A stretch of 64,000 nt of DNA from Octopus vulgaris (Eukaryota): positions 163,246,001 to 163,310,000 of the forward strand of contig OX597814.1 of assembly GCA_951406725.2 (NCBI GenBank). Reading direction: 5' to 3'. The position numbers and the translations under genes are program-made. The notes beneath the pieces were generated by a model, which searched no databases, was not told the DNA's origin, and worked only from the letters and a program-made list of their open reading frames with translations. Positions 6,743-42,832 of this stretch are shown piece by piece. Numbering within the stretch: position 1 is the first letter of the stretch; every line of letters starts with the position of its first letter.

Positions 6743-7773
6743 TCGCATACACTCAACAGATTAGACTGTTCGAAAAGAAAAGAAACCTAACATCGAAAAG
6801 AAAAGAAACCTAATAACAAGTAGCCTTAGATGCCAAGAACCCTCCAAAGTATTCTAGTTGTTCCTAATAATACTGTTTTCTGCAGCTCTACTAAATTGGG
6901 TTTTGTGCCTATTTCCTCTAGCCATCTGTTCAGATGTTTAGGGAAAGTTCTCAATGCACTTATAACTACTGGGATACATTTTACCCGCACTTTCCATAGT
7001 CTCTGTAATTCAATAGCTGGGTCCTGGTACTTTGCTAGTTTTTCTAAACCTCTCATATTGATTTTTTTCTCATTTGGGACTGTAAAGTTAATTATCTGAC
7101 ACTTTCTATTCTCTTTATCTACTATTATCAAATCGGGCATTCTAGCTTCTATTACTCTATTGAATGTTGAAGTCCTACAACATCTTGTATTTCTTACTTT
7201 CTAGTACTTTGCTAAATTCATGTTCATACCATTTATCAGTATGTTCAGGTCCTAGCTTTCTACAATGGATTGCTCTCCCTAGATTGTCATGTCTTTTCTT
7301 GTATTCTTTCTGTGTCAGCAGGCTACATTCACTTACTATATGAATTACGCTTTCCTCTTTAGATTTGCTTAATCTACATTGGCAATCTCCTTAGTTTTTG
7401 TCTATTTTGACTTTTATCCAATTAGTCCTTAATGCTTGATCTTGTGTAGCTACTAACAAACTTTCTATTTCCTTCTTCAGTTTTCTTTCTGCAACCATAA
7501 CCATGACTCACTACTACTATTTACTGAGACTGGCTTTGTTAGTCTACTGTGCAATGCCTTCTCCTGCCAGTCAGATAATTTCTGTTATTTATTCTGGTTT
7601 TTAACTTCATTTGGGTGAAAATTCCTCTTTTGATATTAACTTTCCCTAAGAGTGTGTCACCTGAGTATAGATCTACTTTCCATATCTTCATGTTACAGCT
7701 AATTAATTCTCTTATGTTGTCTGCTATACTGAACATATTCAAACATTCGCTTATCTATGAGTGTGGGATCATG
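6743..7773 (-). mobile_element. Dong/R4-clade non-LTR retrotransposon (restriction-like endonuclease), 5'-truncated and internally deleted
   Basis: RT fragment MIPHS*I.ECL.MF.IA...KRGIF, then QDQALRTNWIK, a CCHC-like region (HIVSEC), RHDN, and the RLE motif PDLIIVDK...EK..KY..L..E...LW...IPVVI...LQKTVLLGT ending at 6826. Confidence 0.9.
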
Positions 7774-8985: not shown

Positions 8986-9289
8986 ATGAACAATAGCAAT
9001 AATAGCAACCAGAATTATAATTATAGATCAATAAATAGCAACAATGTCAACATGAGTGAACAAACCATACTTAACACAACTAGGATCAGGATAGGAACTA
9101 TGGTTTGACAGCCAATAAAATAGAAGAGACCCGAATGAACTCACCCATTAGCCTAGAAGTAGAAGATGTGAATCCTAAAAAAGCACAGTACTCAGAATAT
9201 TGTCTATGTATAAAAGACTAATAGCTTAGAAGATAGACAGGAAAATGTAGAAGTCACATCTGGAGAACGTGAAGCGGATAATATTAACA

Positions 9290-10195
9290 GAAGTAGTAGA
9301 ACTTTTAAATGCGACTGTGCAAAGAACAGGGTTTGTCTGCTTAACTCTAATTGTAGGCATAAAAATATCGTATACAGATGTAAAATTACCTCACAGAATA
9401 GAGAGTATTTCTATATAGGAGCTAGTTCATGTTATATTAAGCAAAGAATTGCAAATCATTTAAGTTCGTTTAGGAATAGGAACAAAATGAATGCTATAGT
9501 ACCAAAGTATTTTCCATTGCTTGGGAAATGATTAGCAAGGCAAAACCTTATAGAATTGATGATAATAGATGTGTGGAAGAATTGTACCGAATTTTCACTT
9601 CTAAATTCACTCTAAGTCCACAAAATATACGTTTAAACTTTTAAATAAACATAACTTAACATCTATAGTAATTATAATATTTAAAATAATGATTGTGATA
9701 ATTAATTGTGATATTTACGTAAATAATACTAGTAAATATAATTATAATAATAATTACAATAATATTAATTGAGGGCATAAACCCGAAATAAGTGAAATAC
9801 CTCTGAATAAATAATGTACTTAATACAGTAAAATGTAAACAAAACTGCTACAAATAACTATAATATAAAGGAACATTTTAGAATCACGATTTAGCTGTAA
9901 TATCAGTAAAGGTATTTATTAGACCAGAATTCAATTCGATTCAAATAGTAACGCTATCACCTTCAACTGAATACCAACGCAGGAAGCTTGTTTGAATTAG
10001 TTCACTTTGAAAACGTCGTAAGTGATGGACCCTTGATGAAACAGTAACGACTAGGATGTATAATTGCATACAGAGCAATGTGCAGTTGCTGCAGTAGAAA
10101 CATACGTTGGACATTGTTGTATATGCTGTAGAAAACTTTTAATAAAAGAAGTTTGGGATGTGAATAAATCTCCATTTTCCTCTTGTTTTTCATTT
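9290..10195 (+). mobile_element. Penelope-like (Naiad-type) GIY-YIG endonuclease fragment and 3' region
   Basis: Translation CDCAKNRVCLLNSNCRHKNIVYRCKI...YFYIGASSCYIKQRIANHLSSFR gives CxCx5Cx5C plus GIY-YIG; 3' extent approximate. Confidence 0.8.
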
Positions 10196-12160: not shown

Positions 12161-13318
12161 ATGGAAAAAAAATTCAAGATAGAAAATGCTAGAATAATCT
12201 TATAAAAAACATTTCTGTACCGGTTTCAGTCATTGAGACTTTTTCAACTGTAAGTATGGAAAACATCTGGAAAAATTAAAAGAAAAGTTTTTTAAAAGAA
12301 TATTTGCATAATGTTCAAATACAATTGGCATTTTCCTTGTTTCTGCCCGTTTCTCTCTCTCTCTCTTGTTTACTCTTGTGGGTTCCAGGCCGTTGCGAAT
12401 TTTTGGTAGGGAAGAAGAAGAAGAAGAAGAAGAAGAAGAAGAAGAAGAAGAAGAAGAAGGGGGAATAAGGTAGTATGATGGTAGTGAGGTATTAAATGGT
12501 CAAGTGACCTAAAATTGGCTAGTTATGGATTATAGCAGTGATTGAGACTGTTTTTTAATGAATTCTTGAGAATCTCTTGAGTGTATCATTTTTAATATTT
12601 GCGTGTGTATTTGTGTTTATTCTAAGGCCGTGGTGGATATGTCGTTTGTGGTAGACGCGTTCAAAAGGGGTCTGTATTTTGTAATAAAGAGTCTCTTTAC
12701 CAATTCGTTGGCTACAGGCTGTATTGGTAGAGGGGGGAAATTCTGAAGCTTGGATTTTTGTTATTGGCACAAAATGCTATTTTTCTGTTAAAGGGAATTT
12801 TGATCTGGGATATGTGATGAGCCATTCTTTTACGTAGACTGTTTTTTGTTTGGCCTATGTATTGCTCTTGACACCCAGAGCAAGTTAGTGTGTATATCAG
12901 GTTCTCCGAAGCACGTGTGAAGTTGCTTTTCACTGTGAAACGTTGTTTCTGTTTGAAAGAGAACTCTGATCCCTCAATTAAATTGGCGCATATCCCACAG
13001 TTGGGTCTTCCGCATTTTTTTACTGACGGCTTCTGTGTTGTTGTTGAGCGTATTCGGGCTTGTGTTAGGAGACTTTTCATAGATTGGGGTTGTCTCTTGC
13101 TTTTTATGATGGTGTGTGTTTGGAGGATTAAGTTCATTCTGTGGTCATTTTATAGCAGGGGAATGTTTTGAAGGATGGCGTCGAAGGCTTCATTGTTGAG
13201 AGAGTTGTGTGTGGAGATGTATGGCAGGGCTTTTGGTTGTAAATCCTTCTTTAATTTGGGATGTCTGAGTTCCTGGATGTTGAGTTGAAGGGCACGTTGA
13301 AAGCATATGTCAATTAAA
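12160..13318 (-). mobile_element. Penelope-like element (Neptune-type), 3' portion with GIY-YIG endonuclease
   Basis: KKCGRPNCGIC linker Zn finger, ENLIYTLTCSGCQEQYIGQTKNSLRKRMAHH; one stop and a frameshift; flanked by (TA)n and (GT)n. Confidence 0.9.
12211..12256 (-). ncRNA. Hammerhead ribozyme-like motif (U3-A8 core variant)
   Basis: Core UUGAAAA, stem II AGUC-ucaau-GACU, GAAA, palindromic ACCGGU, GUA site; stem I is poorly paired. Confidence 0.6.
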
Positions 13319-17800: not shown

Positions 17801-17846
<46 letters not shown>

Positions 17847-17875
17847 ATACAATATGTTACATTACTCGGTAGTCA

Positions 17876-17938
17876 AGATAAAACTCTGAGTTTCAGATGC
17901 CGAAGTGGAAATCCACAACACCATCTCTTCGGTTATCT
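17876..17938 (-). ncRNA. Hammerhead ribozyme-like motif in PLE 3' region
   Basis: Stem I AGAUAA/UUAUCU, core CCGAAGA (U4>C), long stem II GAUG..GUGG-auuu-CCAC..CAUC, extra U before GAAA, pseudo-palindromic stem III ACUC-A-GAGU, GUU site. Confidence 0.65.
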
Positions 17939-18142
17939 GGCTATTTGAAAACGTTATGAAAAAATACCGTTAAAAATGAAGGGAAATTACTCTGTTATAA
18001 CTCTGCTTTGCCTGCGTACTTATACATCGCTCGCATTTTTCGTCATAAAAATTATATAAAAATACATAAAAATATATAAAAATATATAAAAATATATAAA
18101 AATATATAAAATCTTCTTGGGACATAACACAGAAAGCATGTT

Positions 18143-19975
18143 CTATCCGTTTTCTTTAGGGGACCAAAAACGTAACAGAAATTTAGTCACATGTGGGCAT
18201 GATCCGAAAAGTTCTGTCCTTGTATTTAGACATGTGGTAGGGTCTAAGCTGCTTTTCCAGATAAGCCATCTCTCCATGTCGCATAAACCGCACCTTCCGC
18301 TGCCGTTAGTATAGGGCTTACATCTGGCCAAAATCTTCCATTGTATGTTATAATCGACACCTTTATCTCTTAAAGACCAAATATGATTGGATAATTGTGT
18401 CGCTTTTCTTTTGTTCCAGTGCCTAAAGCTCAAAGTGTGGTTATTGAACCTGGCCTTGAAATTACCCTCTGTCAGGCCCACGTATTTCTTCGTCAAAACG
18501 GTGTCTTTAGTGGTTATAGAGTTTACGGTAGCTTCATATATGATGGTCTTGGACATGCAAGCTCCATTTAGCGGGCACAATTCTTTATTCCTGCATGAAC
18601 AGCTGTTTTCTTCTTGTGTTTTTTGTATGTTATGATTGATTATGTTTTTAAAATTGGTAGTTGAACTAAAACTAATTTTTAAATTGTGTCTATTGAAGAG
18701 TTTCCTATAAGCATGGTTAACTGGAAAATGTCTATCTATCAGTGCTAGGAAATATTTACCTATATTGAAGGCCACCTCGGGTGAGTAAGGGGGCGTAAAC
18801 CAGATGACCTTCCTATTTCTATTATTCCTTTTCCTTATTGTTGGGCTGGTGATAGGTGTATATTTTATTTTTTCGCTAAAACCACTATCTTTTAAAGCTT
18901 TATTATAAACTGGGGCAACGCTATTGAAGATGTCCTCATTAGATGAGAGGCTAGAAATCCTCTTACTAATATTTTTAACTAAATTTTTGAATACTATAGG
19001 GGGATGGCATGAACCTACATTAATATAACTTAGTCTATCATTGGGCTTCCTATAAGGCTTATAAATATTATTATTAAGATCTAAGGAAACGTCTAAGAAA
19101 TTGACAACCGTCAGGTTAGTGTCTATAGTTATACTAAGTCCGAAGTGTTTCATTAACTGGATAATATCCTTCCTAAAACGATCTTGTGCTGGTCCATTTG
19201 TATTAGCTGTTAAGGCGAGGGCATCATCTTTGTAGATGGCGAAATGTACGTTAGGGAATGTCTTACTGAAGGTATCTAGGAGAAAGAGTCCAATTAGATC
19301 ACAGATGCCTGCCCCATCATATGAACCCATGCTCACATCGAAAGCGCCCTCCGTGTCGGTGTTTTTTACCCACTTTGCATTCTCACTGAAAAGTAATGTC
19401 TTTCTAGCATGGAAGATTATATCCTTATCATTGGTACTAATTTCTATGAAGTCACTAGCGAAGATTAGGGCTTTATCTAGCAGTTCTTTAGAGATAGAGG
19501 CATAAAAATCAACAATATCGAATTGTGTAAACCTCGCTTTTTTCTTATTCTTAATAGCTTTAAACCAGTCTACGACTTCTATACTATTGGACCATTGCAC
19601 TAGCCTAGTATCGGTCTTAATTTTCGTATTTATTTTATCTAAAATTTCTTTGCTAATAATCCCTAGTTCTGACTTGGCTGGGTTGATAAGCCTACATTTA
19701 GGATTGGAAAGGAAGTTTTCTTTGTGGTCTTTAATAGTAATAAAGGCCTCTTTTTGGGGGAGGGTTTCTATTTTTTTATCTAATTTAAGTTTAGCGGCGA
19801 TGACGCTAGCTTCTTTATTAATTTCGTTATATGTCTGTGCCCTAGCCTTAGTATAATTATTAATGATGCTGTTGTGTAAGAGTTGTGTGTATTTGCTGTT
19901 ATCTACCAGGTATAAGTTCTTGGTTTTATCCGAAAAAAGTGCTTTTTTCTTGGAGCTTTTTATATGATCAATATC
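18143..19975 (-). CDS. PLE reverse transcriptase / GIY-YIG endonuclease, N-terminally truncated (~610 open codons, no native start)
   Basis: Frame is open 125 codons upstream of the listed 485-aa ORF: SDKTKNLY, FITIKDHKENF..PKCRLINPAKSELG; then QFDIVDFY, MGSYDGA, IYKDD, NFLDV, CSCRNKELCPLNGAC, IIY...YVG.TE..FKARF.NH, CGLC. Confidence 0.9.
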   Translation of the reverse strand, partial: DIDHIKSSKKKALFSDKTKNLYLVDNSKYTQLLHNSIINNYTKARAQTYNEINKEASVIAAKLKLDKKIETLPQKEAFITIKDHKENFLSNPKCRLINPAKSELGIISKEILDKINTKIKTDTRLVQWSNSIEVVDWFKAIKNKKKARFTQFDIVDFYASISKELLDKALIFASDFIEISTNDKDIIFHARKTLLFSENAKWVKNTDTEGAFDVSMGSYDGAGICDLIGLFLLDTFSKTFPNVHFAIYKDDALALTANTNGPAQDRFRKDIIQLMKHFGLSITIDTNLTVVNFLDVSLDLNNNIYKPYRKPNDRLSYINVGSCHPPIVFKNLVKNISKRISSLSSNEDIFNSVAPVYNKALKDSGFSEKIKYTPITSPTIRKRNNRNRKVIWFTPPYSPEVAFNIGKYFLALIDRHFPVNHAYRKLFNRHNLKISFSSTTNFKNIINHNIQKTQEENSCSCRNKELCPLNGACMSKTIIYEATVNSITTKDTVLTKKYVGLTEGNFKARFNNHTLSFRHWNKRKATQLSNHIWSLRDKGVDYNIQWKILARCKPYTNGSGRCGLCDMERWLIWKSSLDPTTCLNTRTELFGSCPHVTKFLLRFWSPKENG

Positions 19976-20765
19976 TTTTTTTCTTTTTTTTTTTTTTTTT
20001 TTTTTTTTTCATTTAGCGGGCACAATTCTTTATATATATATATATGCGTGTATGTATGTATGTATACATACGGAGTTATGTATACAAATTACAAATATAT
20101 GCGTACATATATAAAGCCGCACACGCGCACATGTCTGAGTGTTTATGTTCCCATATTATGTATGTACATGTTTGTGTATACACATATATATTTATATATG
20201 TATGTATATGTATATATATTTATTAGTTGATACTCTATACATACATACATACATACATACATACGTGTTGAGTGATAGAGTTCATATACGTACATATATG
20301 CATACATATATATATACAAATATTTACGTATAAATATGCACACATATTCTACGTGTATATAAATATTTGTGCGTGTGTACTTACGTTTATGTATGTATAT
20401 ATTGTGTGCATACATATATGCATACATACATGCATATATACATAATACATATATATATGCATATATGCATGCATACATTCACACATGAAGGCATCATGTT
20501 TATAGATATATAGATTTATTAGATTTAAAAACACTCTCTGGCACACATATGCACACCCGGAAGCATAAAACCATATGTGTATCGTTATTTAAATTGGGAT
20601 AAACAAAAAGGAGTGAAAACTTTTAGCAGACTGTATGCATATTACATGTAGCCCTTAATGTTTACATCGATTTCATTATTACACAACAATATTTCCTCCC
20701 TTCTCTTACTTTTTACTATAAAGGCCATTTAAAGTAAACACGAGAAATTCGATTCATGACTTATA

Positions 20766-34129: not shown

Positions 34130-36487
34130 TGGCTTCTGAAAGTGACATTGTACTGGATATAATGCCACTGTTATCCATCATGTGCCAATCCAGTTCATAC
34201 AACACAAGTCAGTTCACACAGTACCTGACATTTATGATGCTGCCAACTTTTCAACGGAATTTATTGATTCTCCTTAGCACTGGTGTCCCTCTTCACAACC
34301 TGCTACAAAAGTTGGATACAAAATATGCACTAAAACTAAGTAATGATTCAAAATGCTCACACACTTATGCTGCATTTGATCAGAACCGAAGTCTCTATTT
34401 TGACTGGTTGTTCCAAGGGAGATATTTACATTTCACACATTTACCCCATCCCATCAGACATGCTATTTCTATTCAAGCTCTTTCAGTTTCCAGTGACACT
34501 ATCTTTGCCTCTGATCATTAACAACTCTCAGAGGCAGTTGGTCAGAATTGCTAGTGTTAAGCTGACAAGTCTATGTCTCCCTCATGGTCAGCTCCATGCA
34601 GATAACTTTTTATCTGAGTACCAAACCACAGAACAAGAAACGTTGTCTCTTCAGATCTCTTGCCGAACGAAACACTTCTTAAAAATGTTTCTGCTTTATG
34701 CATTGCATATCAGTTTAGAATTACAAGAAAAAGTAAAACAAATAGGTAGTATTTTCTTAAGTCACACATTTAAAATTATCAATAAACACAGCCTTGAAGG
34801 TTTCATACTTCATAGAAACCCGAAAAATTTCAAATTGAGGTATGTCTGTGTATTCATCATCATCATTTAACGTCTGTTCTCCATGCTAGCATGGGTTAGA
34901 TGGTTCGACCGGGGATCTGGGAAGCCAGAAGGCTGCACCAGGCTCCGGTCTGATCTGGCAGTGTTTCTACAGCTGGATGCCCTTCCTAACGCCAACCACT
35001 CCGTGAGTGTAGTGGGTGCTTTTTACGTGCCACCGGCACAGGTGCCAGGCAAGGCTGGCAACAGCCACGATTGGATTGGTGCTTTTTATGTGTCACCGGC
35101 ATGGAAGCCAGTCAAGGCGGAGCTGGCATCGGCCACATGTGGATGGTGCTTTTTTACGTGCCACCAGCACGGAAGCCAGTCAAGGCTGCGCTGGTATCGG
35201 CCACGTTCGGATGGTGCTTTTTACGTGCCACCGGCACAGGGATCTCAACTACTGTTTCCATTGATTTTTGATGTTGGTGTACTTGACTCAATAGATCTCC
35301 TCAAACACAGGGTTGAAACAGTGTTTCTTTACTTGCCACCTGCACAGGAGTCAGTCCAGCGGCACTGGCAACTGCCGGGTGCCAGTCATTGGATTGGTTC
35401 AATTTCAATTCCGATTTCACTTGCCCCAACAGGTCTTCACAAGCAGAGTTTTGTGTCCAATGAAGGGAGGTTGGCATGGGTGCCAGTCGTCGGATGAGGT
35501 TCGATTTCGACTTCACTTGCCTCAACAGGTCTTCGCGTGTCCAAGAAAGGAAAGGCATGCATAAGTGGGCTGGCTATATCCCTTGCAAGGGACACAGGAT
35601 GGACTCACTTGTTCTGCCGGGTCTTCTCACGCACAACATATTTCCAAAGGTCTCGGTCACTAGTCATTGCCTCGGTGAGGCCTAAAGTTCGAAGGTCATG
35701 CTTCACCCCCTCGTCCCAAGTTTTCCTGGGTCTACCTCTTCCACGGGTTCCCTCAACCGCTAGGGATTGGCACTTTTTCACACACCTTTCTTCATCCATT
35801 CTCGCCACATGACCATACCAGTGCAATCATCTCTCTTGCACACCACAGCTGATGCTTCTTAGGTCCAACTTTTCTCTCAAGGTACTTACACTCTGTCGAG
35901 TATCTACACTGACATTACACATCCATCGGAGCATTCTGGCTTCATTCCTCGTGAACTTATGCATGTCCTCAGCAGTCACGGCCCATGTTTCACTGCCATG
36001 TAGCATGGCTGTTCGTACACATGCATCATACAGTCTGCCTTTTACTCTCAGCGAGAGGCCTTTATTCACCAGCAGAGGTAAGAGCTCCCTGAACTTTGCC
36101 CAGGCTATTCGTACACTAGCAGTTACACTTTCAGCACACCCACCCCCGCTACTGACTTGGTCACCTTGGTAACGGAAGCTATCAACTACTTCTAGTTTTT
36201 TCCCCTGGAAGTTGTTTTCTGCAGATTTTGAGTTTTTTTTTGCTCCTGAGCATCTGCCACATACAAAAACTATCTTCCCAGTTAGCCTTCCTTTGACATT
36301 GCTGCACCTCTTATGTGTCCATAGCTTACACTGGGTACATGCTTACACTGGGTAAACAAATATTCGAAAATAATTACTTAGAAAAAGTATTGCATTCAAC
36401 TTTGCTTTAAGTTAAATCATTTCAGTTTAACAAATAGAAAAGTTTCTACATATTACACACTTGGGCAACATCAAATATCTCTGCTAG
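34130..36487 (+). mobile_element. Helitron 3' remnant (PIF1-like helicase fragment) interrupted by an RTE LINE
   Basis: GVPLHNL; EVSILTG..KG...PIPSD..F.FK..QFPV.L...INNSQ.Q...CLPHGQL matches Helitron helicase motifs; 3' end GGGCAAC...CTGCTAG|T at 36487. Confidence 0.75.
34855..36354 (-). mobile_element. RTE LINE, 5'-truncated, with ~750-bp 3' UTR and (GAT)n tail
   Basis: VKGRLYDACVRTAMLHGSETWA, HWYGHVARM...GRGRPRKTW...DRDLWK; stop at 35605. Confidence 0.93.
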
Positions 36488-41142: not shown

Positions 41143-42832
41143 TTGTGCCAAGTAGAAGCACCACTGATGCTATATTCCTCGTATGGCAACTGCAGGAGAA
41201 ATACCTCGCCAAAGATAAATCCCTATACTTGACTTTTGTTGACTTGGAGAAAACCTTTGACAGGGTCCCCTGATCCCTTATCTGGTGGGTGATGCAGAAG
41301 CTGGGATTATCGAGTGGTTAATAAGAGCTGTACAGGAATGCTGTTTGTAAGGTAAGGGTCAGCAATGAGTATAGTGAAGAATTCTGGGTAGAAGTAGGGG
41401 TTCACCAAGGATTAGCCCTCACCTCCCTCTTATTCATCATAATCCTCCAGGCAATAACAGAGGAATTCAAGACAGGTTGCCCCTGGGAGCTCCTCTATGC
41501 TGATGACCTTGCTCTCATAGCGGAATCACTACCACAACTAGAGAAGAAATTTCAGGTGAGGAAGCAAGGTTTAGAATTGAACGGCTTTAGAGTCAATGTT
41601 GCGCAAACCAAAGTCCTAGTAAGTAGGAAGACACACACATCACAAACCCCTTCAAGTAGATGGCCCTGCTCGATCTGTAGAAAAGGCGTTGGTAGAAACT
41701 CCATAAGGTGTACCTACTGTAAGCTATGGACACATAGGAGGTGCAGCAACATCGAAGGAAGGTTAATCAGAATGATAGTTTTTGTGTGCGGCAGATGCAC
41801 AGGAGTAATAAACACCACAGGTGCTCAGAAAACTGATTCCGTCACATGCCAGGGGGAGAAACTAGAAGTAGTTGATAGCTTCTGCTACCTAGGTGACCAA
41901 GTCTTTAGTGGGGGTGGATGCTTGAAGAGCGTTGCCACTAGAAAAAGAATAGCTTGGGTAAAGTTCAGAAAGCTCTTACCTCTACTGGTGACAAATGGCC
42001 TCTTGCTCAGAGTGAAAGGTAGATTGTATGATGCATGTGTGCGAACTGCCATGCTACACGGCAGTGAAACATGGGCCATGACTGCTGAAGACATGCGTGG
42101 GCTTGAAAGAAATGAAGTTAGTATGATCCGCTGGATATGTAATGTCAGTGTGCATACACAACAGAGTGTAAGCACCCTGAGAGAAATGTTGGACATAAGA
42201 ATCATCAGATGTAGTGTGCAAGAGACACGACTGCACTGGTATGGTCATGTGCTGCATATGGGTGAGGACAGCTGTGTGAAGAAGTATCACTCCCTAACAG
42301 TGGAAGGAACCTGTGGAAGAGAGAGACCCAGGAAGACATGGGATGATGTGGGGAAGCATGACCATCGAACGTTGGGTCTCATGGAGGCAATGATGAAAGA
42401 CCAAGACCTCTGGAGATATGCTGTGATTGAGAAGACTGGCAAGTAAAGTGAGATCACAGCCGTAGCCTACACCAGTGTTGCATAACCAGCCCATTTAAAA
42501 AGTACCTTTGAATTGTCGGGCAACAAAATCAAATCAAATCTAATATCAATCAAATGGAAATTGTAGCTGTGGCCAATGCCAGTGCTACCTGACTGGTTTC
42601 TGTGCTAGTAGCACACAATAAGCACCATACATGCATGGATCATTGCCAGTTCTGCTTGACTGGCTCCTGTGCCGGTAGCATGTAAAAGAGTGGTAGGCAT
42701 TCGGAAGGGCATCCAGCAGTAGAAACATTGCCAGATCAGATTGGAGCATTGTGCAGCCTCCTGGCTTGCCAGTCCCCAGTCAAACCGTCCAACCCATGCC
42801 AGCATGGAAAATGGACGTTAAACAATGATGAT
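41143..42832 (+). mobile_element. RTE LINE, 5'-truncated RT pseudogene with PHD-like insert and 3' tail
   Basis: STTDAIF, FVDLEKTFDRVP*, GVHQG, LLYADDL, then the 296-aa ORF to 42446 and the shared RTE tail. Confidence 0.95.

What the first reader, a model, noticed from the sequence alone, without database searches (positions are those of the whole stretch)
19976..20033. Fossil template jump onto a prematurely polyadenylated, endonuclease-less PLE transcript
Seen: on the minus strand the 5' junction reads (TA)n - ATAAAGAATTGTGCCCGCTAAATG - A26 - truncated ORF. The 24 nt at 20010-20033 are identical to 18565-18588 inside the same element. There an AATAAA (18584-18589, minus strand) lies 19 nt upstream of the point where the poly(A) begins, which is canonical cleavage spacing. 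That site is in the Zn-finger linker just before the GIY-YIG domain. Inference: the element makes an internally polyadenylated RT-only, stop-less RNA. The RT jumped onto its poly(A) tail, copied ~24 nt further and resolved through TAT microhomology with the (TA)n target. This would point to both an attenuation or isoform mechanism and inter-template switching.
Basis: partly seen in the sequence, partly recalled or inferred. Interest (0 to 1): 0.75.

Follow-up and report, generated by a model that had tools for sequence, protein, structure and literature searches.

The report
Copying stutter scar in jumping gene
One young copy of a Penelope-type jumping gene carries a run of A's plus a 24-base piece from its own middle at its broken front end; the run is likely a stutter of the copying enzyme on a short A-run rather than a captured poly(A) tail, because sister copies show similar A- and T-runs with no poly(A) signal, so this is probably a mild variant of ordinary insertion scarring.

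Summary
The sequence is as described: 20010-20033 equals 18565-18588, with AATAAA 19 nt upstream at the donor. The junction is unique, 1 of 1034 genomic sites. The host element is a young, Hydra-like Penelope element inserted in (TA)n. The poly(A) reading is doubtful. The tract is A26-G-A7 and sits on a native G-A6-G run. Eleven other family insertions carry 10-32-nt A or T expansions at native runs, none with a poly(A) signal 10-30 nt upstream; seven are T-runs on the sense strand, and two have native sequence on both sides. The donor end also resembles the native flank at the break (6 nt, one indel; 0.35% of sites, versus 5.7% for the AATAAA spacing). Best reading (0.6): polymerase stutter, then a microhomology jump on element RNA. 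RNA 3' ends and raw-read support for the junction are untested.

The parts
17802..17849 (.). (TA)n target microsatellite, 3' side of the insertion; its last 8 nt overlap the element end
17842..19981 (-). 5'-truncated copy of a young Hydra-like Penelope element (positions 460-2590 of a 2590-bp unit), 99.95% identical to its closest sister copy
18143..19981 (-). Open remnant of the 708-aa RT + GIY-YIG ORF; the N-terminal part with the RWK motif is missing in this copy
18565..18588 (-). Donor site of the 24-nt insert (unit positions 1853-1876); nearly the same piece (1849-1875) is inserted in a second copy, L138/L150/L169
18584..18589 (-). AATAAA formed by the Asn-Lys codons of the linker; one of 7 sense-strand AATAAA in the unit (4.4 expected from composition)
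18575..18601 (-). CxCx5C linker motif (residues 557-565 of the full ORF)
19976..19981 (-). Native A6 run at which the copy is truncated
19982..20009 (-). Added homopolymer: A26, then G, then one extra A; reads as a repeat of the native G-A6 unit with expansion
20010..20033 (-). 24-nt templated insert identical to 18565-18588; its last TG also matches the native bases before the A6 run (6 nt with one indel)
20031..20045 (.). (TA)n target microsatellite, 5' side; 20031-20033 is the 3-nt overlap with the insert

Best explanation
This is the 5' junction of one young Penelope-like insertion, and its A tract was likely made by polymerase stutter on the element's own A6 run, followed by a likely microhomology-guided jump to an internal site of element RNA. 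Steps: (1) reverse transcription starts at the family's usual 3' end in a (TA)n target (end point shown; mechanism inferred from PLE work). (2) After about 2.1 kb the enzyme reaches the native G-A6-G run, slips, copies the G, realigns and reiterates, giving T7-C-T26 in the cDNA (product shown; route inferred). (3) The cDNA end then matches the TG, or TAAAT(T)G with one skipped base, at unit position 1876, and re-primes there on sense RNA, the same molecule or another (match shown; jump inferred). (4) After 24 nt the cDNA end pairs with the TA target through 3 nt and is sealed (overlap shown). The enzyme is likely the element's telomerase-related RT; a host repair polymerase is not excluded.
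For: The tract sits on a native A6 run and repeats its G interruption; duplicated non-A letters are called a strong indicator of slippage in PMC3415434 (passages). Other copies: A22 at an inversion junction on a native A6 (L027), A32 on a native A5 joined to a 335-bp tandem repeat (L083), A4-G-A4 turned to A26 with native sequence on both sides (L109), A7 to A11 internally (L138). Strand control: a native sense T6 is expanded to T10-T25 at 5' junctions in 8 matches from 7 insertions, one (L147) with a reiterated T-run unit; these cannot be tails of sense RNA. 0 of these 11 insertions has AATAAA/ATTAAA 10-30 nt upstream of the A-reading strand. The other long A tracts (22, 26, 32) bracket A26. 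The donor end matches the native flank over 6 nt with one indel, as only 9 of 2579 sense positions do, while 147 of 2590 lie 10-30 nt behind an AATAAA. Of 75 inversion junctions, 45 overlap by 0-8 nt (mode 2) and 30 carry filler, often local reiterations.
Against: The donor has no A-run after its end, whereas L027, L083 and L109 have A's on both sides. The exact overlap is only 2 nt (TG); the 6-nt match needs a skipped base and was noticed after the fact. The route needs several slips in a row. A second copy has the same donor ending one base earlier, against 0 isolated inserts at one control site; this hints at a preferred RNA end or landing site that stutter alone does not predict. Genome-wide A10 searches gave only 1, 1, 1 and 0 hits at four native A-runs, so long A expansions are rare. 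5' ends are not enriched at homopolymer runs (13 of 179 ends against 224 of 2590 positions). No biochemical test of stutter for this RT exists in what I read.
Confidence: 0.6

Rival explanations
1. One reading: some transcripts are cleaved and polyadenylated at 18565; the RT, ending in T7-C or T6, jumped onto such a tail, copied A26 and 24 nt more, and joined the TA target.
For: Canonical 19-nt spacing from AATAAA, present in 159 of 159 sampled copies. The donor has no genomic A-run, so the A26 abuts it exactly as a tail would. Fewer steps than the stutter route. An independent copy (L138/L150/L169) enters the same donor one base earlier; the control site had 0 isolated inserts among 9 matches. 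Jumping between separate templates is shown for R2 RT (PMC8857657, abstract).
Against: 5.7% of positions have such spacing by chance. No other copy has A's here. The second copy has no A's at all, has its own 3-nt overlap, and its inverted arm ends about 106 nt from the donor, so it may be a local templated filler; its break region also pairs with the donor in the top 5% of tested windows. The 40 nt downstream are not U-rich (25% T against 29% mean). The G in the tract and the 6-nt likeness to the native flank are unexplained. Contigs of 2 runs guessed to be RNA cross 18565 and no A loose end was listed in the 3 runs that laid, though contigs cannot show ends.
Confidence: 0.27
2. The homopolymer and filler were written by a host end-joining polymerase (polymerase-theta type) while it sealed the 5' end, not by the RT.
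For: Junction fillers in the family are mostly short, local, reiterated copies with 0-3 nt overlaps, the pattern I recall for theta-mediated joining (recalled, no call). Both A and T runs expand.
Against: The 24-nt donor lies 1416 nt from the break, in sense orientation, in a copy with no inverted arm, which points to an RNA template. L109 and L138 expansions are internal, away from any junction.
Confidence: 0.09
3. The junction is an assembly or sequencing artefact.
For: Not confirmed in raw reads. It lies between microsatellites, and one hairpin junction in the family (L007) shows clustered single-base losses.
Against: The copy is 99.95% identical to a sister copy with an open frame. A7 at this site occurs in no other copy, so the run is not error-prone in this assembly. 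An exact 24-nt insert ending in a 3-nt target overlap matches the family's other junctions.
Confidence: 0.04

Closest known systems
Hydra clade of C-terminal EN+ Penelope-like elements (Craig et al. 2021, PMC8557442; passages and section 11 read)
   Same: Single ORF under 3 kb with C-terminal GIY-YIG; RWK, DKT, CxCx5C, CxxC and CxH motifs; no GxKF/Y; (TA)n targets; tandem and inverted arms with a ~70-nt optional tail.
   Different: No canonical hammerhead found in this family, though the paper reports them as readily detected. No tree was built. The section read says nothing on homopolymer or templated junction inserts.
A-tail expansion by L1 ORF2p slippage in new Alu inserts (Wagstaff et al. 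2012, PMC3415434; passages)
   Same: Expansion of A runs during reverse transcription, duplication of non-A interruptions, likened by the authors to telomerase reiteration.
   Different: There it occurs in the 3' tail early in priming. Here it occurs on 5-7-nt internal A and U runs, mostly at 5' junctions, about 2 kb into synthesis in the window copy.
Template jumping and 5'-junction extras of R2/R1 non-LTR elements (PMC8857657 abstract; PMC2718515 passages)
   Same: Continuous cDNA across separate templates; truncated 5' ends with 1-5 nt microhomology or extra bases.
   Different: R2 jumping is described as needing non-templated addition and (recalled) goes to acceptor 3' ends; here the likely landing is internal and the extra bases are a long homopolymer plus a templated 24-mer.
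L1 insertions with 5' homopolymers (Meyer et al. 2010, PMC2837659; abstract)
   Same: Homopolymer at the 5' end of a truncated insertion.
   Different: Those are inverted poly(A) tails from twin priming. This family's 3' ends carry no tail, and the runs grow from native internal runs.
Premature polyadenylation of L1 (Perepelitsa-Belancio and Deininger 2003; seen only as a reference-list title)
   Different: No RNA 3' end at this site has been shown, and no retrocopy ending here was found.
Template jumps and self-priming proposed for Penelope elements in Adineta vaga (PMC3846280; passages) and internal initiation by PAc (PMC11167929; parts 1-2 of 4)
   Same: PLE copies with inverted arms, tails, AT-rich targets, microhomology at 5' junctions and proposed template jumps.
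   Different: Neither text, as far as read, reports homopolymer stutter or capture of a poly(A) tail.

Membership tests
Hydra clade PLE | Single short ORF, RT then C-terminal GIY-YIG endonuclease, element under 3 kb | tested here: met
   708-aa ORF in a 2590-bp unit; Pfam GIY-YIG at E=0.02, below the curated cut-off
Hydra clade PLE | RWK present, GxKF/Y not conserved, DKG changed to DKT | tested here: met
   RWK at 37, DKT at 114, no GxKF/Y; definition
Hydra clade PLE | CxCx5C linker; CxxC and CxH in the endonuclease | tested here: met
   557, 660, 691; CxCx5C[PL] in 58 of 150 best homologues, many of them partial
Hydra clade PLE | Insertion into (TA)n | tested here: met
   Window flanks and many sister copies
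Hydra clade PLE | Canonical hammerhead ribozyme (a trait shared with other canonical PLEs) | tested here: not met
   No hammerhead family among 59 Rfam matches at E<=1 on L007 and L002; one CTGANGA core, inside the ORF. I therefore call the family Hydra-like
Hydra clade PLE | RT phylogeny with named Hydra families | not tested
Capture of a polyadenylated RNA end | AAUAAA 10-30 nt upstream of the A tract start | tested here: met
   19 nt; chance 147 of 2590 positions
Capture of a polyadenylated RNA end | U/GU-rich element downstream of the cleavage site (recalled feature) | tested here: inconclusive
   25% T in the next 40 nt against 29% mean; no upstream TGTA within 60 nt
Capture of a polyadenylated RNA end | Other genomic copies with A's joined at the same base | tested here: not met
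   1 of 1034 sites, the window itself; 0 for natural context plus A10; the second donor use has no A's
Capture of a polyadenylated RNA end | Transcripts ending at the site | not testable with these tools
   Only contigs were served; they cross the site but cannot show ends
Slippage expansion during reverse transcription | Duplicated non-A interruption | tested here: met
   Native G-A6-G becomes G-A26-G-A7-G; reiterated T-run unit in L147
Slippage expansion during reverse transcription | Expansion of internal runs independent of poly(A) signals and of strand | tested here: met
   0 of 11 other insertions with a signal at 10-30 nt; 7 are sense T-runs
Slippage expansion during reverse transcription | Shown for the enzyme itself | not testable with these tools
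   Needs purified protein

The most novel reading that the evidence does not exclude
The element makes a discrete RNA 3' end just after the zinc-finger linker, a stop-less RT-only transcript, and its RT lands on that end repeatedly: once on the poly(A) tail (this window) and once on the bare end one base earlier (L138/L150). Genomic junctions would then be a fossil map of a PLE's internal RNA ends and of an attenuation route not reported for PLEs in the papers I found.
Probability: 0.25. Interest if true: 0.6.

Novelty: new member of a known kind. Interest (0 to 1): 0.3.

Why it matters
If the best reading holds, a long A tract next to an AATAAA at a retroelement junction is not proof of a captured poly(A) tail, which is a caution for genome reading. 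It would also mean a telomerase-related PLE reverse transcriptase reiterates on short A and U runs in vivo, in a family with about a thousand near-identical copies whose junctions can be counted; PLE proteins can now be purified (PMC11167929), so this is directly testable. A five-term search for this in PLEs found no paper, which is a narrow search. Either way it is a single insertion scar with no sign of function.

Tried and rejected
Search for retrocopies ending in poly(A) at the site with natural upstream sequence: 0 hits; note that this pattern cannot match the window junction itself. Expression data: 24 runs listed, all contigs, most only guessed to be RNA. Of 4 laid, X1 gave nothing, and X6, X8, X9 cover the ORF including the endonuclease part with no A loose end at 18565; contigs drop rare branches, so I count this neither way. 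Long-range RNA pairing between the break at unit position 460 and the donor: none (duplex -6.8 kcal/mol, weaker than 97% of windows). Idea that truncation prefers homopolymer runs: not supported (13 of 179 ends). Idea that the hexamer is conserved across the clade: N-K in 4 of 58. Donor as hot spot: 2 isolated inserts plus 2 deletions among 4 matches, against 0 isolated inserts, 4 deletion-type copies and 5 chance hits among 9 at one control site; suggestive, not significant. These patterns catch only breaks that change two chosen letters, so they miss some. Rfam hits were microsatellite noise. A10 before the native A6 at unit position 1817: 0 hits. Paper searches returned nothing; one search returned one paper, not read. 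Inverted poly(A) by twin priming, as in L1, was rejected because the family's 3' ends have no tail.

Full report
Observation. The 24 nt at 20010-20033 equal 18565-18588 exactly and extend on neither side; AATAAA at 18584-18589 ends 19 nt before 18565; three bases overlap the (TA)n flank. The tract between insert and ORF is A26-G-A7. The junction occurs once in the 2.8-Gb genome among 1034 exact matches to the 22-nt core.

The element. A DNA search gave 1767 candidates; 40 were scored and the full-length matches were 99-100% identical. One real tandem unit from L007 is 2590 bp with a 708-aa ORF. The window copy covers unit positions 460-2590 and differs from its closest sister by one base. The protein has RWK, DKT, CxCx5C, CxxC and CxH and lacks GxKF/Y, the marks given for the Hydra clade of Penelope-like elements (PMC8557442, section 11). 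I found no canonical hammerhead and built no tree, so I call it Hydra-like. Copies sit mostly in (TA)n and form tandem and head-to-head arms with an optional tail of about 70 nt. Earlier scan notes call this an octopus genome; I did not test that.

What lies under the A tract. Sister copies read TTG-A6-GAT or TTG-AAGAAA-GAT at the break; the closest ones have A6. A7 here is unique to the window copy. So native G-A6-G has become G-A26-G-A7-G. The donor ends in TAAATG and the native flank is TAAATTG: 2 nt exact, 6 nt with one indel. Only 9 of 2579 sense positions match that well, while 147 of 2590 lie 10-30 nt behind an AATAAA. Both coincidences were noticed after the fact, but the rarer one belongs to the microhomology reading.

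The family makes such tracts without signals. A scan of all 136 loci then held, some overlapping, found A22 at an inversion junction on a native A6 (L027), A32 on a native A5 joined to a tandem repeat (L083), and A26 replacing A4-G-A4 with native sequence on both sides (L109), plus two small expansions, A9 in L080 and a 10-nt run in the 3' UTR repeat of L018. Genome-wide patterns for A10 at four native runs gave 1, 1, 1 and 0 hits; two of these were the loci already known and one was new (L138, A11, internal). The strand control was stronger: T10 or more at a native sense T6 gave 8 matches in 7 insertions, all at 5' junctions, 10-25 nt long, one with the T-run unit repeated. That site is near the 3' end and is covered by more copies, so the counts are not rates. 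In two of the seven (L143, L144) a second arm lets the run be read from either strand. None of these 11 insertions has AATAAA or ATTAAA 10-30 nt upstream on the A-reading strand (L080 and L018 were not included). In 109 loci not picked for homopolymers, 179 distinct 5' arm ends included two junctions with runs of 20 nt or more. Of 75 head-to-head junctions, 45 overlap by 0-8 nt and 30 carry filler; the fillers are mostly local or reiterated element sequence. Slippage with duplicated non-A letters is described for L1 ORF2p (PMC3415434, passages).

The hexamer. It is the Asn-Lys codon pair of the linker, one of three in-frame AAT-AAA pairs and one of 7 sense AATAAA (4.4 expected). It is in 159 of 159 sampled copies, which says little in a 99%-identical family partly sampled through an overlapping word. 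Among 150 best homologues, 58 show the linker motif and 4 keep N-K. The downstream 40 nt are not U-rich. No copy carries natural upstream sequence followed by A10.

L138 (also L150, L169) holds unit positions 1849-1875 as an isolated insert at an inversion junction, ending one base before the window's donor end and without A's. A genome-wide test for breaks just after the donor core gave 4 matches: these two inserts and two deletions. The same design at one control site gave 9 matches: no isolated insert, 4 deletion-type copies and 5 chance hits. Two against zero is not significant, but adjacent end points are notable. The second case has its own 3-nt overlap, lies about 106 nt from the end of its inverted arm, and its break region pairs with the donor better than 95% of windows, so it can be local filler. 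The window donor, unlike L027, L083 and L109, has no A-run of its own.

Expression and reads. All 24 listed runs are contigs. Three of four laid runs cover the whole ORF; contigs in X6 and X8 cross 18565; no A loose end was listed there; the junction stretch was skipped as repeat.

Mechanism. Most likely (0.6): reverse transcription from the usual 3' end, stutter and realignment on G-A6-G, re-priming at position 1876 of sense RNA by short homology, 24 nt more, and closure on the TA target. The products and overlaps are shown; the order of events and the enzyme are inferred. Rivals: capture of a prematurely polyadenylated transcript (0.27), host end-joining polymerase (0.09), artefact (0.04). 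Same-molecule and other-molecule jumps cannot be told apart.

Comparison. It works like the 5'-junction extras and template jumps of non-LTR elements (PMC2718515 passages; PMC8857657 abstract) and like L1 slippage. Template jumps were already proposed for PLEs (PMC3846280 passages). It is unlike L1's inverted tails (PMC2837659 abstract). Recently active Penelope-like families are reported in an octopus annotation (PMC13282606 passages). I found no paper on homopolymer stutter in PLEs (five terms all required), in a library that lacks most subscription journals. No supplements were opened.

Verdict. Real, unique junction; the jump is supported; the poly(A) isoform is possible but not favoured. 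New member of a known kind; interest 0.3.

Noticed in passing
L140-L147 (unit position 2468; corresponds to the sense T6 in the window copy's 3' UTR near 17960): A native sense T6 is a recurrent 5' stop point with T10-T25 expansions in 7 insertions; L144 has facing A25/T18 runs and L147 a repeated T-run unit. Best in-genome evidence for reiterative synthesis in this family.
   Followed up: partly
L138/L150/L169 (G000:C24, about 4319350-4322300): Two-armed copy with unit positions 1849-1875 inserted between the arms; same donor end as the window within one base; also an internal A7 to A11 expansion.
   Followed up: yes
L083/L170 (G000:C1 about 123859700): Copy whose 5' side joins through A32 to a 335-bp tandem repeat while its 3' side joins (TA)n; may be a jump onto another repeat's RNA or an insertion with a large deletion.
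   Followed up: partly
L007/L136 (G000:C1 about 57219200) and L153, L157: Arms with many clustered small deletions, in L007 next to a hairpin junction; either sequencing error at palindromes or error-prone synthesis.
   Followed up: no
L135-L136 (G000:C1:57208000-57223500): Array of at least four full 2590-bp units head-to-tail plus an inverted full unit; several copies keep an open 708-aa ORF.
   Followed up: partly
pLTR of the unit (window about 17842-17960): No canonical hammerhead core found although the clade is reported to have one; the region folds into stems. An earlier scan note describes a rewired hammerhead in PLEs of this genome; not compared.
   Followed up: partly
L076: Host-flanked 5' truncation at unit position 1849, the same base at which the L138 insert starts and 4 nt from the window insert's start; possible pause site, but the sampling favours ends near here.
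   Followed up: no
window 9214-9531 (+) and 12712-13149 (-): Two other GIY-YIG remnants (Pfam E=0.0013 and 0.0001), from different PLE families; the first has a CxCx5C-like linker.
   Followed up: no
window 41325-42446 (+), 35827-36342 (-), 6826-7200 (-): RT remnants with an inserted PHD-like zinc finger (41325-42446, Pfam RVT_1 and PHD), and a C-terminal fragment resembling restriction-like-endonuclease LINEs (6826-7200; family label recalled).
   Followed up: no
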